From the IMG/VR virus record IMGVR_UViG_3300011113_000415: 64,000 nucleotides of DNA, one strand, 5' to 3'. Shown piece by piece: positions 2,103-22,923 of this stretch; position 1 is the stretch's first letter, and each line of letters opens with the position of its first letter. A program made the translations under genes and the position numbers. The stretch comes from a virus (Duplodnaviria; Caudoviricetes). The notes beneath the pieces were generated by a model that worked only from the letters and a program-made list of their open reading frames with translations, was not told the origin of the DNA and made no database searches.

Positions 2103-2497
2103 CCATGCCCGCTGGAAAATATTACATTGGTGACTTGTGCTATGTTATGCACCCTGAATGGGACGAGGCTGTGAGCCTCATGTTCCCTGACAATCATTCG
2201 GGACGTGGTGTAGATGGCGAGTTTGTTCTACGAGATGGCCGCAGATTTGCAAATTTTGGAACTCGCTGGGGCGACGGTACTTACACAAGTAACATTAGAA
2301 CACGTCACCTAGTGGACTCTGGGTCAATTGGTTGCATACGTGTAGAAGACATTCGAGACAACACCTATGACAACATTGAAACCCTGGGTGCTGTGGTAGA
2401 GTTTGCACAGCCTTTTGAAGTGTCAGAAGATTCAGGCTTGATTTGCTTTGGTGCAGTGGAAATTGAAACCAACCCCGAATACGAATTTGATGAATAA
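2099..2497 (+). CDS. hypothetical phage protein (YYIGDLCYV...VDSGSIG)
   Basis: ATGA overlap, GGAG RBS. Confidence 0.8.
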   Translation: MTMPAGKYYIGDLCYVMHPEWDEAVSLMFPDNHSGRGVDGEFVLRDGRRFANFGTRWGDGTYTSNIRTRHLVDSGSIGCIRVEDIRDNTYDNIETLGAVVEFAQPFEVSEDSGLICFGAVEIETNPEYEFDE

Positions 2498-2798
2498 ACT
2501 AATCCGTGATGGCCGTGTAGCAGTACTGTATTCGCCTAAGTATGGAGGCGGATGGTATTCGTGGAATCCAAATCACCCTGAAATCTTGTTTGATCCTGCC
2601 ATAGTGGACTTTTTGGAAAAGAAACAACTTGAAGAATTGCAGGTATATGTTACACTGAAATATCCCGATGTTAGTCAATGGGGCTTGGAGGGATTAGCAA
2701 TTGAGTGGATTCCCCAAGGTGTTCATTTCCGGGTGAAGGAATACGATGGCAGCGAAAGCATTGAATTAAGAGACGGAGTAAACTGGATACAGGCTTGA
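2490..2798 (+). CDS. hypothetical phage protein (VAVLYSP.YGGGW...EYDGSE)
   Basis: ORF in operon. Confidence 0.8.
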   Translation: MNKLIRDGRVAVLYSPKYGGGWYSWNPNHPEILFDPAIVDFLEKKQLEELQVYVTLKYPDVSQWGLEGLAIEWIPQGVHFRVKEYDGSESIELRDGVNWIQA

Positions 2799-2823
2799 CA
2801 CTAAATAGATTTCCTAGTATAGT
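2795..2823 (+). promoter_or_regulatory. sigma70-type promoter for the isolated CAT tRNA
   Basis: TTGACA-N17-TATAGT ending 10 nt before the tRNA. Confidence 0.75.
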
Positions 2824-2832
2824 ATTTGATAC

Positions 2833-2918
2833 ACAACGGACGCCGTATTGGTCGCAGGCCCTAGACTCATAATCTAGTTCGAAAGACACTGTGGGTTCGA
2901 ATCCCACCCGTTGTACCA
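2833..2918 (+). tRNA. tRNA with CAT anticodon and class II (Leu-like) body
   Basis: acceptor ACAACGG/CCGTTGT, A73, CCA; anticodon stem CTAGA/TCTAG with loop CTCATAA; T arm GTGGG-TTCGAAT-CCCAC; 13-nt variable region. Confidence 0.85.
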
Positions 2919-2926
2919 CAATAACC

Positions 2927-3406
2927 ATGACCAAAGTAAATTCCAGTCCCCAACGTCACACATTCCAACACAGCAAAATTGAGTTGGAAGCAGTGCTGGA
3001 AGATATCCGCAATCAGGATCGCCTGAAATTGGCCGACCCAGAGTGGCAAAAAGACAATCTAGAGTACGACTTGCGTAGTACCAAATGGATCTGCGACCGA
3101 GTCAAAAGCACCAAGACCTATGCTCAAAACTTGTATGCGGCCCTGTGCAACAATGACTTTCAAAAGAACGCGGTATGGACCAGACTTGAAGACAAAGTAT
3201 GGGGTTGTAGTTGGCGACATGCTGGAGGTATCGTAGCCGACATGCGTGAAGAAGGTGACTACATTGATTGGTACTGTTCGGGCATACAAGGCGAGCCTGA
3301 TGAGTCCTGGATAGATCTAGGGCATGTTCCTGAAGGCACTGTTACAGACCAAATCCGTGAAGACTTGTTTCGCCTGGGATGGCTTGTGCTAGAGTCCCGA
3401 GACTAA
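2927..3406 (+). CDS. conserved hypothetical phage protein (YAQNLYAALCNN...CSWR.AGGIVA...DWYCSG)
   Basis: ORF; ATG at 2927. Confidence 0.85.
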   Translation: MTKVNSSPQRHTFQHSKIELEAVLEDIRNQDRLKLADPEWQKDNLEYDLRSTKWICDRVKSTKTYAQNLYAALCNNDFQKNAVWTRLEDKVWGCSWRHAGGIVADMREEGDYIDWYCSGIQGEPDESWIDLGHVPEGTVTDQIREDLFRLGWLVLESRD

Positions 3407-7408: not shown

Positions 7409-7486
7409 GCCCCTATGGACAAATTGGTAAAGTCATCTCTCTCAAAAGGAGAAGTCGTCTCTGTTCGAATCAGAGTAGGGGTACCA
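7409..7486 (+). tRNA. tRNA-Leu(CAA), short variable region
   Basis: cloverleaf, loop CTCAAAA, A73, CCA. Confidence 0.9.
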
Positions 7487-9976: not shown

Positions 9977-10050
9977 GCCCCTTTAGTTTAAAAGTAAAAC
10001 AGACGCTTGATAAGCGTCAGTCGGAGGAGCGTTACCTCCCGGGGGTACCA
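9977..10050 (+). tRNA. tRNA-Ile(GAT), non-canonical D and T loops
   Basis: GACGC-TTGATAA-GCGTC; T loop AGCGTTA; CCA. Confidence 0.85.
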
Positions 10051-12337: not shown

Positions 12338-12412
12338 GGATGAGTAGCATAATGGTAGTGCGCCTCCTTCATACGGAGTCAGGTGGTAGTTCGATTCTAC
12401 CTTCATCCACCA
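12338..12412 (+). tRNA. tRNA CAT (elongator Met or Ile2)
   Basis: cloverleaf, loop TTCATAC, paired 1:72, CCA. Confidence 0.88.
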
Positions 12413-13109: not shown

Positions 13110-13187
13110 GCAACGGTGGCAGAGTGGTCCAATGCATGGGATTGCAAATCCCAAAAACCGCTGGTTCAAATCCAGCCCGTTGCTCCA
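13110..13187 (+). tRNA. tRNA-Cys(GCA)
   Basis: cloverleaf, U73, CCA. Confidence 0.93.
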
Positions 13188-13439: not shown

Positions 13440-13514
13440 CGCGGGATGGAGAAGCGGTAACTCGTCAGGCTCATAACCTGAAGATCGGCGGTTCGATTCC
13501 GCCTCCCGCAACCA
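13440..13514 (+). tRNA. initiator tRNA-fMet(CAT)
   Basis: C1:A72 mismatch, loop CTCATAA, CCA. Confidence 0.9.
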
Positions 13515-15991: not shown

Positions 15992-16067
15992 GCCCCTTAA
16001 ACTAATCTAGTGAAAGTGCGGGACTGAAAATCCCGAAAGCCAGGAGCGTAACCTGGAGGGGGCACCA
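15992..16067 (+). tRNA. tRNA-Phe(GAA), non-canonical T loop
   Basis: CGGGA-CTGAAAA-TCCCG; T loop AGCGTAA; CCA. Confidence 0.88.
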
Positions 16068-16686: not shown

Positions 16687-16751
16687 AACAGCGTAAACTG
16701 CGATTCAGAAAAGGATTCAAGACGGCGGGGCAGTGCCGCCCAGGTCCACCA
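16687..16751 (+). ncRNA. ssrA: two-piece tmRNA, acceptor piece
   Basis: GAC-GGCGG-GGCAGTG-CCGCC T arm then CAGGTCC-A-CCA, complementary to 17134-40 with G3:U70. Confidence 0.85.
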
Positions 16752-16763
16752 TAAGGAAGTTTG

Positions 16764-17132
16764 ATGCGTATTACTGAGATTGCTAATACAAAACTATCAT
16801 TTAAAACAACAAAAGGCAGTAATGCTATTGGTGTTGAAATGAACGTTGACGGGCAATACGCAGGGATGTTTCAATACGATGCAGGTAACGGAAGAAGTTT
16901 AGTAGAGTTAGATCCAGACTTTCAAGGCAAAGGTTTGGGTAAAATTCTAATACTAAAAGAAATCTATACTGCTATCATGTCTGGATTAGACTATGTAGAA
17001 GATGAGTCACGCACCCAAGCATTTGATAATGCTATGAATAGTTTGGCAGACGCTGGTTACATAGTCAATGATGACGAGTATTGGTATGTCACTAGTGAAG
17101 GTGAGCAATATCTCAAACAAGTTTCTTTATGA
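16764..17132 (+). CDS. GNAT-like acetyltransferase inside the tmRNA intervening segment
   Basis: ELDPDFQGKGLGKIL acetyl-CoA motif A; AAGGA RBS right after the CCA; stop 1 nt before tmRNA G1. Confidence 0.75.
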   Translation: MRITEIANTKLSFKTTKGSNAIGVEMNVDGQYAGMFQYDAGNGRSLVELDPDFQGKGLGKILILKEIYTAIMSGLDYVEDESRTQAFDNAMNSLADAGYIVNDDEYWYVTSEGEQYLKQVSL

Positions 17133-17133
17133 T

Positions 17134-17314
17134 GGGCCTGACACAGGATCGATTGGGTCAAGAGTAGGGATAGTGGCGCTCGGTAAGGTAGAAGCCGTTA
17201 GGGTTGGGAGTTCCCAGCCGAAGAAGCAAAAAAAGTAAAGGCAAACGACTCACAGTTCCAATTGGCCGCGTAAAGTAGCCTAGGGTAGGAAATACCTCGT
17301 AACAGAAACCACCA
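17134..17314 (+). ncRNA. ssrA: two-piece tmRNA, coding piece (tag ANDSQFQLAA)
   Basis: GGGCCTGA..GGATCGA 5' end; tag frame 17241-17273 GCAAACGAC...GCCGCGTAA; TTGGGTC pairs with GATTCAA 16714-20. Confidence 0.9.
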
Positions 17315-21771: not shown

Positions 21772-22923
21772 ATGATTTTTTACGATTTGAACGGTATAAA
21801 ATTCCATAGTCCTTTTGCGGCTTTTCTATACGGATCAATACATGATCCTCACACTTTTCCAAGATTTAATTTTTTTGATGCAGAATTTTCTCTCATTGAT
21901 TGGACGTCAGAACCCACGCTTAGTTTTCAAACACTGTGCGATCTACGTGCCCATCAGTTGCGAAACAAATATGACCGATTGATATTGTTATTCAGCGGCG
22001 GCACTGATTCTATCACTGTATACAACACCTTTGTGCGTAATAATATACACATAGATGAAATTGTTGTTGTGTATTCTGGCACGGACGCTGAAATATTTTT
22101 ACCAACTGATTTGGCTCGATGGGTTATAACAAATCATAAAGATAAAACAACAAAAATCACTCTAAGAACTTATCAAACCCATGATGATACTGTTGAATAT
22201 GAAAAAAGATTACTCAACGAAAATTTTCTAATAGAGGATGACGATAATTTTAGACATCAAGATGCTAAATTTTGTATGCCAGTTGTGCATAGCGAACTTA
22301 TCAACCAGTCTTACGATAACTATAGCCATTGTGTGATAACAGGCTTTGAAAAGCCTCGACTGATCGAACTTAATGATGGTTATTATTTTGAATTTTTGGA
22401 TAAAGTTTTTTCTAGTGTAATGATGCGCCAAAATATAGAATTCTTTTTTGTATCTCCTGACATGCCTGAATTACATGCCAAGCAATGCCACATGATGTTG
22501 AACTATTGTTTAAAAACCAACACAACATTTACAGAAATAGAAAAAATAGAAAATTACTATCTCAAGTGTGCTGTTCAGGGCCGCGATCCGGAACCAATGG
22601 TCTTGCGAGGACACAGTATGTTAGAGAAAACGGCTACTAGGCAGCATGCAAATAAAATTAATCAGATTAATTTTTCAAAAGAAATACCCTTGGCCTTTGT
22701 ACAACAAATGTTCCACAATCAGATCAGTTTGCCTTTTGCATCAGCAGTAGAACGTAAATCGCCTGCTTTTAGAAAATATGTCAATGGATGGAATGCAATT
22801 CAGTCCGATAAAACATTGGTATCATACATGGTACGCATGGGATTGCTTTCTTCACAAACACAACCAGTTCAATCATACCACGGCATTCGTTCAAAAGCCC
22901 ACAAAATCAAATGCCTGAACTGA
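21772..22923 (+). CDS. PP-loop (adenine nucleotide alpha-hydrolase-like) protein
   Basis: LLFSGGTDS PP-loop; ITGFEKP. Confidence 0.7.
   Translation: MIFYDLNGIKFHSPFAAFLYGSIHDPHTFPRFNFFDAEFSLIDWTSEPTLSFQTLCDLRAHQLRNKYDRLILLFSGGTDSITVYNTFVRNNIHIDEIVVVYSGTDAEIFLPTDLARWVITNHKDKTTKITLRTYQTHDDTVEYEKRLLNENFLIEDDDNFRHQDAKFCMPVVHSELINQSYDNYSHCVITGFEKPRLIELNDGYYFEFLDKVFSSVMMRQNIEFFFVSPDMPELHAKQCHMMLNYCLKTNTTFTEIEKIENYYLKCAVQGRDPEPMVLRGHSMLEKTATRQHANKINQINFSKEIPLAFVQQMFHNQISLPFASAVERKSPAFRKYVNGWNAIQSDKTLVSYMVRMGLLSSQTQPVQSYHGIRSKAHKIKCLN

What the first reader, a model, noticed from the sequence alone, without database searches (positions are those of the whole stretch)
2795..2918. Stand-alone CAU-anticodon tRNA with a Leu-like class II body
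It has its own promoter, a 3-bp D stem with a large D loop, a 13-nt variable region with a small hairpin, A73 and an A at position 8, but the anticodon is CAT. The array already has an initiator (13440) and another CAT tRNA (12338). Established: bacterial LeuRS largely ignores the anticodon, while MetRS and TilS read CAU. Inference: it could be an atypical elongator Met/Ile2 that escapes host nucleases, or a mistranslating tRNA that inserts Leu at AUG/AUA codons.
Basis: partly seen in the sequence, partly recalled or inferred. Interest (0 to 1): 0.6.

Follow-up and report, generated by a model that had tools for sequence, protein, structure and literature searches.

The report
Long-armed phage tRNA for isoleucine AUA
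A giant lake phage carries a real tRNA gene with the "methionine" anticodon CAU on a long-armed, leucine-like body. It belongs to a conserved family that most likely reads the isoleucine codon AUA, so it bends the textbook rule on which bacterial tRNAs have a long arm and is unlikely to be a mistranslation device.

Summary
Window 2833-2918 (+) is an 86-nt tRNA(CAU) behind its own promoter (TTGACA-17-TATAGT, 2795-2823). It has a 3-bp D stem, a 13-nt variable arm, A73, and A8 paired with U14.

It is not a one-off. I found 52 distinct relatives in phage contigs and in Paraburkholderia, Cupriavidus and Ralstonia genomes. All 117 copies found by scans that left the anticodon free carry CAU. All helices, including the variable-arm stem and the 15:48 pair, show compensatory changes.

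In 31 Paraburkholderia genomes, 25 carry this tRNA. The 6 without it carry an intron-split ordinary tRNA-Ile2. Only one genome has both, and none lacks both. TilS is present.

In sister phages the same slot, with a matching promoter in the one sister checked, holds an ordinary tRNA-Ile2-like gene, often followed by Arg(UCU) and Leu(UAA). The window's 26 tRNAs have no other AUA reader, although ATA makes up 33% of Ile codons. ATA columns align with Ile in relatives, and ATG columns with Met.

Best reading, about 0.7: a lysidine-dependent AUA-decoding tRNA-Ile2 on a class II scaffold that depends on host TilS. Leu mistranslation is unlikely. Charging and modification are inferred, not shown.

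This scan has met the same family before on other DNA (Cupriavidus megaplasmid, other phages).

The parts
2795..2823 (+). sigma-70-type promoter TTGACA-17-TATAGT, ending 9 nt before the tRNA
   Evidence: 11 of 12 consensus positions. Conserved in L043 and L008, where it also precedes a CAU tRNA.
2833..2918 (+). tRNA(CAU), 86 nt with encoded CCA, on a class-II-like body
   Evidence: Identical in L001/L043. Member of the 52-sequence family A2.
2840..2846 (+). A8 (2840) and U14 (2846): the tertiary 8:14 pair, swapped relative to the usual U8:A14
   Evidence: A8:U14 in all 52 distinct family members. A8 was never part of a search pattern; U14 was fixed in the family-specific patterns.
2868..2870 (+). 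anticodon CAT within A31-CUCAUAA-U39
   Evidence: CAT in 80 of 80 genomic and 37 of 37 viral family copies found with the anticodon left free.
2878..2890 (+). 13-nt variable region: 2-bp stem (U-A, C-G) closed by a GAAA loop, then CACU
   Evidence: Relatives have a 3-bp stem, and all three pairs show changes on both sides.
2927..3406 (+). downstream ORF that starts 9 nt after the tRNA; right-hand border of the conserved slot
   Evidence: Homologues flank the CAU tRNA in relatives.
2448..2798 (+). upstream ORF; left-hand border of the conserved slot
12338..12412 (+). second CAU tRNA, elongator-Met-like (loop UUCAUAC)
   Evidence: The same loop occurs in the S. pneumoniae tRNA-Met listed in the supplement of PMC12514573.
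13440..13514 (+). third CAU tRNA, initiator type (C1xA72 mismatch)
   Evidence: 82% identical to a Paraburkholderia initiator tRNA.
9977..10047 (+). tRNA-Ile(GAU), found by Rfam only; reads AUU/AUC, not AUA

Best explanation
The gene is the phage's AUA-decoding isoleucine tRNA (tRNA-Ile2 type), built on a long-variable-arm scaffold instead of the usual short-arm body. Shown: it is a well-formed tRNA behind its own promoter. It belongs to a conserved family whose helices and 15:48 pair covary and whose anticodon is always CAU. It sits in the slot where sister phages keep an ordinary tRNA-Ile2-like gene. Inferred: host TilS converts C34 to lysidine, since no TilS was found in the window or in two complete sister-type jumbo phages. 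IleRS then charges the tRNA, and it reads AUA, a codon the 40%-GC3 phage uses heavily. Any copies left unmodified would be charged by MetRS and read AUG, which does no harm. The swapped A8:U14 pair may keep LeuRS off this Leu-shaped body; that is speculation.
For: (1) Real tRNA. The tRNA and promoter are identical in L043 while the flanks are about 91% identical. (2) Family: 52 distinct sequences, 99.4% of cells paired, 18 of 25 pairs with double-sided changes, none of 500 shuffles as high. The variable-arm stem covaries at all 3 pairs. The 15:48 pair is G:C in 32 sequences and A:U in 20, with no mismatch. (3) The anticodon is CAT in 80 of 80 genomic and 37 of 37 viral copies found with the anticodon unconstrained. 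(4) Either/or with ordinary tRNA-Ile2: of 31 Paraburkholderia genomes, 25 have the long-armed gene. The 6 without it all have a class I tRNA-Ile2 split 1-36/37-79 by about 250 nt. One genome has both and none lacks both. (5) A complete genome, G001, has 3 initiators, 1 elongator Met and this gene as its only CAU tRNAs. It has no class I Ile2, and its one group I intron lies in tRNA-Leu(UAA). TilS is present in three such genomes. (6) Synteny: the order ORF2072 - ORF2448 - tRNA(CAU) - ORF2927 is kept in relatives. Their tRNA is class I and up to 89% identical to Ralstonia tRNA-Ile2. The promoter is conserved in L008, which has a class I CAU tRNA in the slot. (7) In other phages the long-armed gene sits directly beside Arg(UCU) and Leu(UAA). 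This is the same trio as with class I Ile2-like genes. (8) Elimination: the window has tRNAs for all 20 amino acids. Its CAU set is an initiator, an elongator-Met type and this one, and there is no UAU tRNA. (9) Need: ATA is used at 20.6 per 1000 codons and makes up 33% of Ile codons. ATA columns align to Ile 68% of the time, like ATT (67%) and ATC (71%). (10) The arm A31-CUCAUAA-U39 equals that of E. coli, B. cenocepacia, P. aeruginosa and the 'Bb'-labelled tRNA-Ile2 and differs from the three tRNA-Met listed there.
Against: No modification or charging data exist for any family member. The focal gene lacks acceptor-stem features that TilS uses elsewhere: C4:G69 for E. coli TilS and G3:C70 for B. 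cenocepacia TilS (PMC12514573). It has A4:U69 and A3:U70 and keeps only C5:G68. The chromosomal members keep all three. It also lacks E. coli IleRS elements recalled from memory (U12:A23, C29:G41). CAU plus A73 alone can make a MetRS substrate. The phage's host is unknown, and 200 genomes sampled across the order lacked the family, so the host's TilS may never have met this scaffold. Two phages (L101, L325) carry a UAU tRNA next to the long-armed gene, which would make it redundant there.
Confidence: 0.7

Rival explanations
1. It is an extra elongator tRNA-Met. MetRS recognises CAU and A73, C34 stays a cytidine, and the tRNA reads AUG. The long arm is a neutral or nuclease-evading decoration.
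For: The CAU anticodon and A73 are present. The focal acceptor stem lacks C4:G69 and G3:C70, which TilS enzymes use. [quoted passage not shown]
Against: The phage already has an elongator-Met-type tRNA at 12338, and under this reading it would have no AUA reader despite 33% ATA among Ile codons. The slot holds Ile2-like genes in relatives. The family is mutually exclusive with tRNA-Ile2, not with tRNA-Met, in Paraburkholderia. Overall identity to a Burkholderiaceae tRNA-Met is only 62%.
Confidence: 0.15
2. It is a mistranslating tRNA. LeuRS ignores anticodons and charges the Leu-like body, so Leu goes in at AUG, or at AUA after lysidinylation. This would parallel the nematode nev-tRNAs.
For: The body is class-II-like, with A73, A15:U48, G18G19, a 3-bp D stem and G13.A22. 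Class II tRNAs with Gly or Ile anticodons are charged only with Leu in nematodes (PMC3333845).
Against: The U8:A14 pair that LeuRS depends on is swapped to A8:U14 in every member. A14U alone cuts A. aeolicus LeuRS efficiency about 40-fold (PMC2377443), although the compensated swap has not been tested. An anticodon-blind identity predicts anticodon drift, yet 117 of 117 copies are CAU. ATA columns align to Leu only 5% of the time and ATG columns 6%, against Ile 68% and Met 67%. The family is the sole Ile2 candidate in most Paraburkholderia, where Leu at every AUA or AUG would be very costly.
Confidence: 0.04
3. It does not work in translation. It could be an integration target (att site), a decoy for tRNA-cleaving defence nucleases, or a decaying gene.
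For: Several family members lie at the very ends of prophage contigs, and one copy (L314) is cut off right after CUCAUA, as at an att junction. Some genomes hold several copies.
Against: It has its own conserved promoter, an encoded CCA and a perfect cloverleaf. Compensatory changes occur in every helix except the invariant D stem, including within the phage subgroup with the 13-nt arm, where pairs 1:72 and 2:71 change together. It is a single-copy chromosomal gene in 25 of 31 Paraburkholderia genomes.
Confidence: 0.06

Closest known systems
Bacterial tRNA-Ile2 (ileX type, lysidine-CAU) with TilS, for example in E. coli and B. cenocepacia (PMC12514573)
   Same: CAU anticodon, the arm A31-CUCAUAA-U39, and A73. 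The chromosomal family members share G1-C72 to C5-G68 with the B. cenocepacia and Ralstonia tRNA-Ile2. The gene occupies the genomic slot and fills the genome-wide role of tRNA-Ile2.
   Different: It has a 13-15-nt hairpinned variable arm instead of 5 nt, and a 3-bp D stem with a 12-nt loop instead of 4 bp with 8-11 nt. It has A8:U14 instead of U8:A14. The focal phage copy has A3:U70 and A4:U69.
Bacterial class II tRNA-Leu
   Same: Long variable arm with a short stem and a GAAA-type loop, a 3-bp D stem with G13.A22, UUGGU placement in the D loop, A15:U48 and A73. One allele of the family shares the arm sequence UCC-GAAA-GGA with the Paraburkholderia tRNA-Leu(CAA).
   Different: The anticodon is CAU in all copies. 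The 8:14 pair is swapped and the acceptor stem is Ile2-like. Domain-by-domain identity to tRNA-Leu is only about 60%, no higher than to other tRNAs, so descent from tRNA-Leu is not shown.
Nematode nev-tRNAs (PMC3333845) and other natural tRNAs whose body and anticodon disagree
   Same: A class II body carries an anticodon outside the Leu/Ser/Tyr set.
   Different: nev-tRNAs are charged with Leu and are weakly expressed extras. Here the comparative evidence says the tRNA follows its anticodon (Ile after modification) and is the main or only gene for that job in many genomes.
Phage tRNA sets for A-ending rare codons (Ile2-CAU, Arg-UCU, Leu-UAA) in T4-like and jumbo phages
   Same: The same trio and the same logic: an AT-richer phage supplies readers for AUA, AGA and UUA.
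   Different: In part of this phage group the Ile2 member of the trio has been replaced by the long-armed version.

Membership tests
tRNA (Rfam RF00005) | Cloverleaf scoring above the family threshold | tested here: met
   45.5 bits against a gathering score of 29; also called by ARAGORN.
tRNA (Rfam RF00005) | Conserved tertiary U8:A14 | tested here: not met
   A8:U14 in the focal gene and in all 52 family members. The pair is kept but its orientation is swapped.
Bacterial tRNA-Ile2 (lysidine-CAU) | CAU anticodon in the loop CUCAUAA with A31:U39, plus A73 | tested here: met
   Same as the E. coli, B. cenocepacia, P. aeruginosa and 'Bb'-labelled tRNA-Ile2 sequences in the supplement of PMC12514573.
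Bacterial tRNA-Ile2 (lysidine-CAU) | Acceptor-stem TilS determinants C4:G69 and C5:G68 (E. coli) and G3:C70 (B. cenocepacia) | tested here: inconclusive
   The focal gene has only C5:G68 (A3:U70, A4:U69). Chromosomal family members have all three. The determinants of the unknown host's TilS are not known.
Bacterial tRNA-Ile2 (lysidine-CAU) | Class I body (short variable loop, 4-bp D stem) | tested here: not met
   13-nt variable arm and 3-bp D stem.
Bacterial tRNA-Ile2 (lysidine-CAU) | It is the genome's third CAU tRNA and its only candidate AUA reader | tested here: met
   In the window. In Paraburkholderia: with TilS present.
Bacterial tRNA-Ile2 (lysidine-CAU) | Lysidine at C34 and charging by IleRS | not testable with these tools
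   Needs mass spectrometry or enzyme assays.
Bacterial class II tRNA-Leu | A73 and a long variable arm | tested here: met
   The arm is short (2 bp here, 3 bp in relatives).
Bacterial class II tRNA-Leu | U8:A14 core pair needed by LeuRS | tested here: not met
   A8:U14. The A14U effect is reported in PMC2377443.
Bacterial class II tRNA-Leu | Leucine anticodon (NAG or NAA) | tested here: not met
   CAU in 117 of 117 copies.
Elongator tRNA-Met | CAU and A73 on a class I body resembling the lineage's tRNA-Met | tested here: inconclusive
   CAU and A73 are present, but the body is class-II-like and identity to a Burkholderiaceae tRNA-Met is 62%. A separate Met-type tRNA exists at 12338.
tRNA-Ser / tRNA-Tyr (other bacterial class II tRNAs) | For Ser, G73 and a long (5-7 bp) arm; for Tyr, a G34-U35 anticodon (from memory of E. 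coli identity sets) | tested here: not met
   A73, a 2-3-bp arm, and C34-A35.
Mistranslating tRNAs (nev-tRNA type) | Codons of the anticodon behave as the amino acid of the body | tested here: not met
   ATA aligns to Ile 68% and Leu 5%; ATG aligns to Met 67% and Leu 6%, in alignments with relatives.

The most novel reading that the evidence does not exclude
Isoleucine (AUA) is a further class II tRNA identity in bacteria. A Leu-shaped scaffold, kept away from LeuRS by the swapped A8:U14 pair, was recruited as tRNA-Ile2. It circulates in phage tRNA cassettes and has displaced the intron-bearing ordinary tRNA-Ile2 in most Paraburkholderia. TilS and IleRS therefore accept a tRNA architecture thought to be reserved for Leu, Ser and Tyr.
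Probability: 0.5. Interest if true: 0.75.

Novelty: new variant of a known kind. Interest (0 to 1): 0.6.

Why it matters
Textbook bacterial tRNA biology reserves the long variable arm for Leu, Ser and Tyr (plus Sec), and treats U8:A14 as nearly universal. A conserved, apparently essential CAU tRNA that breaks both rules would show that TilS, IleRS, EF-Tu and the ribosome tolerate a class II Ile tRNA. It would be a natural case of tRNA scaffold replacement, with the A8:U14 swap as a candidate antideterminant against LeuRS. It would also give a tidy system for testing tRNA identity rules, because phage and Paraburkholderia genomes carry either the ordinary or the long-armed gene. In practice, annotation pipelines probably label these genes tRNA-Met, which hides the AUA decoder of many genomes and phages.

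Tried and rejected
(1) I first took the B. cenocepacia tRNA-Ile2 of PMC12514573 (G3:C70, 11-nt D loop) to be a member of this family. The supplement shows it is an ordinary 79-nt class I tRNA, so that paper gives no direct biochemical support.

(2) I suspected a hidden intron-split Ile2 in the complete Paraburkholderia genome. Its only group I intron hit lies in tRNA-Leu(UAA), and neither BLAST nor a pattern search finds class I Ile2 halves.

(3) I tested descent from the host tRNA-Leu(CAA). The anticodon arm and one variable-arm allele look alike, but domain-wise identity is about 60% to many tRNAs, so this is inconclusive.

(4) I looked for a phage TilS. phmmer with a Paraburkholderia TilS found nothing in any ORF of 70 aa or more. 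The one PP-loop ORF (21772-22923, SGGTDS) folds with high confidence (pLDDT 92.7). It is closest to asparagine synthetase B and beta-lactam synthetase (Z 8-10 over the whole protein). TilS reaches Z 7.8 over the N-domain only, so I did not take it as a TilS. There is no PF01171 hit in two complete 336-337-kb phages that carry the family.

(5) The public phage collection holds no close relative and no annotated copy.

(6) Five of the ten allowed literature searches found no paper describing a long-armed CAU or Ile2 tRNA. The library is incomplete, so prior description cannot be excluded.

(7) A 7-base anticodon-loop pattern search of phage genomes was too unspecific to use.

(8) The idea that the family is general to Burkholderiales is rejected: none of 200 genomes sampled across the order has it.

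Full report
WHAT IS THERE

ARAGORN finds 24 tRNAs in the window, the first at 2833-2918 (+) with anticodon CAT. Rfam's tRNA model scores that gene 45.5 bits against a gathering score of 29. It also finds two further tRNAs that ARAGORN missed and a permuted tmRNA at 16690-17273.

The cloverleaf, read from the sequence, has these parts:
- acceptor stem ACAACGG/CCGUUGU
- A8 and C9
- D stem GCC/GGC with a G13.A22 mismatch and a 12-nt loop containing U14, A15 and G18G19
- anticodon arm CUAGA-CUCAUAA-UCUAG
- a 13-nt variable region with a 2-bp stem and a GAAA loop
- a canonical T arm
- A73 and an encoded CCA

A TTGACA-17-TATAGT promoter ends 9 nt upstream.

The window looks like part of a jumbo phage. 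It has small, densely packed ORFs with PHROG hits, DNA polymerase III alpha, ThyX and sugar-modifying enzymes. One of its proteins lies on a contig of 334,901 bp. No whole genome is held for the window.

IT IS NOT A ONE-OFF

An identical 86-nt copy, with its promoter, lies in IMG/VR contig 3300023184_003849 (L001/L043). The flanking genes there are only about 91% identical.

I scanned viral contigs for CAU anticodon arms followed by an extra-long spacer before the T loop. That scan found dozens of CAU tRNAs with a hairpinned variable arm. Many share the D arm GCC-GU(A/G)(U/C)UGGUUGCA-GGC and A8.

All but one of the 120 loci carry a betaproteobacterial title, mostly Paraburkholderia, Cupriavidus, Ralstonia and Trinickia. 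The exception is an Acidobacteriaceae-labelled MAG contig. All 80 copies I inspected carry CAT. The same free-anticodon scan of viral contigs gave 37 copies, all CAT.

I aligned the 52 distinct sequences (A2) and counted pairs:
- 99.4% of cells form standard pairs.
- 18 of 25 pairs show changes on both sides.
- No shuffle out of 500 reaches the observed values, and slid controls collapse.
- All three pairs of the variable-arm stem covary.
- The 15:48 pair is G:C in 32 sequences and A:U in 20, with no mismatch.
- A8:U14 is invariant. U14 was fixed by the family-specific search patterns, but A8 was never part of a pattern.

Within the phage subgroup that has the 13-nt arm (window, L094, L117), pairs 1:72 and 2:71 change together. 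These are working RNAs under selection.

WHICH AMINO ACID?

Four independent lines point to tRNA-Ile2, the AUA reader whose C34 is turned into lysidine by TilS.

(a) Either/or distribution in Paraburkholderia.
- A complete genome (G001) has 67 tRNA hits. I fetched every hit with a distinct score and length (54 genes). Among them the CAU tRNAs are three initiators, one elongator Met and the 88-nt long-armed gene.
- G001 has no class I tRNA-Ile2 by pattern search or BLAST. Its single group I intron hit is in tRNA-Leu(UAA).
- TilS is present above the curated cut-off in three such genomes.
- Across 31 genomes of the genus, 25 have exactly one long-armed gene.
- The six genomes without it all have a class I tRNA-Ile2 split at 36/37 by about 250 nt. 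This fits the group I introns reported in Burkholderia tRNA-Ile2 (PMC8450103).
- Only one genome has both forms and none lacks both. By hypergeometric count the probability is about 1e-5, not corrected for shared ancestry.
- Ralstonia and Cupriavidus carry both forms.

(b) Synteny in the phage group.
- The order ORF2072-2497, ORF2448-2798, tRNA(CAU), ORF2927-3406 is kept in relatives.
- In those relatives the tRNA is class I. In L031, L046 and L029 it is 89%, 86% and 82% identical to the Ralstonia tRNA-Ile2.
- In L008 the promoter aligns with the window's but precedes a 75-nt class I CAU tRNA. The tRNA body was exchanged inside a conserved expression slot.

(c) Company.
- In many relatives the class I gene is followed by Arg(UCU) and Leu(UAA).
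- In L134, L142, L101, L325, L084 and L083 the long-armed gene sits in that same group.
- These three tRNAs read AUA, AGA and UUA.

(d) Elimination and need.
- The two Rfam-only tRNAs are Ile(GAU) and Phe(GAA), so the window encodes tRNAs for all 20 amino acids.
- Of its three CAU tRNAs, the one at 13440 is initiator-type (C1xA72; 82% identical to a Paraburkholderia initiator).
- The one at 12338 has the UUCAUAC loop seen in S. pneumoniae tRNA-Met.
- No UAU tRNA exists in the window.
- ATA is used at 20.6 per 1000 codons and makes up 33% of Ile codons.
- Where window genes align with relatives below 85% identity, ATA columns hold Ile 68% of the time. ATT gives 67% and ATC 71%. Leu appears at 5% and Met at 2% of ATA columns.
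- ATG columns hold Met 67% and Leu 6% of the time.
- These counts are not independent, but they show no recoding.

WHAT ARGUES FOR CAUTION

Nothing here shows modification or charging.

The paper I first thought gave biochemical support used an ordinary class I B. cenocepacia tRNA-Ile2. It still matters, because it shows that TilS enzymes differ in the determinants they use: C4:G69 and C5:G68 for E. coli TilS, G3:C70 plus the D loop for B. cenocepacia TilS.

The chromosomal long-armed genes keep G1-C72 to C5-G68 like the class I gene of the lineage. The focal phage gene keeps only C5:G68.

The family is narrow in cellular genomes. None of 200 genomes sampled across the order has it. The host of this lake phage is unknown.

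I found no TilS in the window. The only PP-loop ORF is asparagine-synthetase-like. Two complete 336-337-kb phages that carry the family lack PF01171. The phage must therefore rely on the host enzyme.

THE LEU HYPOTHESIS

The body does resemble tRNA-Leu. LeuRS does ignore anticodons, and nematode nev-tRNAs set a precedent. Several points count against it:
- Work on E. coli and A. aeolicus LeuRS finds that charging depends on the U8:A14 core pair. A14U alone lowers efficiency about 40-fold in A. aeolicus. Every family member has the swapped A8:U14. The compensated swap has not been tested, so this is suggestive only.
- The invariant anticodon and the codon-column profile fit Ile and Met, not Leu.
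- The gene is the sole Ile2 candidate in most Paraburkholderia.

Domain-wise identity does not show descent from any particular host tRNA.

COMPARISON AND NOVELTY

Functionally this is a phage tRNA-Ile2 of the well-known rare-codon set. Structurally it fails two defining features of that family, the class I body and U8:A14, so I file it as a new variant and not as a plain member.

I found no paper describing it, but the library is incomplete.

This scan has met the same family before. Others describe long-armed CAU tRNAs beside a small TilS in other phages. Those notes prompted my TilS check, which was negative here.

VERDICT

The best reading is a TilS-dependent, AUA-decoding Ile tRNA on a class II scaffold, at about 0.7. 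The alternatives are elongator Met at about 0.15, a non-translational role at about 0.06, and Leu mistranslation at about 0.04.

Noticed in passing
window 9977-10047 and 15992-16064: tRNA-Ile(GAU) and tRNA-Phe(GAA) are found by Rfam (43.9 and 43.6 bits) but missed by ARAGORN. Both have non-canonical T loops (AGCGUUA and AGCGUAA, with no UUC).
   Followed up: partly
window 7409-7486; L043 10204-10294: The window's tRNA-Leu(CAA) has only a 6-nt variable loop. Its orthologue in L043 is 13 nt longer in the variable region. So in this phage the Leu tRNA is short-armed while the CAU tRNA is long-armed.
   Followed up: partly
window 21772-22923 (+): A 383-aa protein with an SGGTDS PP-loop has no Pfam match and more than 100 metagenomic homologues. 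The AlphaFold model is confident (pLDDT 92.7) and closest to the asparagine synthetase B / beta-lactam synthetase synthetase domain (Z 8-10). It is an unnamed amidoligase-like phage family.
   Followed up: yes
window 16690-17273: A permuted (two-piece) tmRNA scoring 80.2 bits sits at the end of the tRNA array.
   Followed up: no
L101 10039-10129; L325 1238-1329 (-): A 91-92-nt tRNA with anticodon UAU and a variable region of about 20 nt lies next to the long-armed CAU tRNA, Arg(UCU) and Leu(UAA). It may be a second, TilS-independent AUA reader.
   Followed up: no
L314 around 870-900: A family copy matches up to CUCAUA in the anticodon loop and then diverges completely. This is either an integration junction or an intron.
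   Followed up: no
L309 1478-1840 (Paraburkholderia G001 C1:1278416-1278673): A group I intron (49.1 bits, just under the cut-off) is inserted in the anticodon loop of tRNA-Leu(UAA). Six other Paraburkholderia genomes have a similar-sized insertion after position 36 of class I tRNA-Ile2.
   Followed up: partly
window 2916-2929: The downstream ORF's ATG lies 9 nt after the tRNA's CCA with no visible Shine-Dalgarno sequence. The tRNA promoter may therefore also drive this mRNA, whose 5' end would be made by tRNA processing.
   Followed up: no
window 13110-13187 compared with 2833-2918: The focal acceptor stem matches the phage's own tRNA-Cys stem at 12 of 14 positions. The variants in L094 and L134 match it at 14 of 14 (GCAACGG/CCGUUGC).
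   Followed up: no
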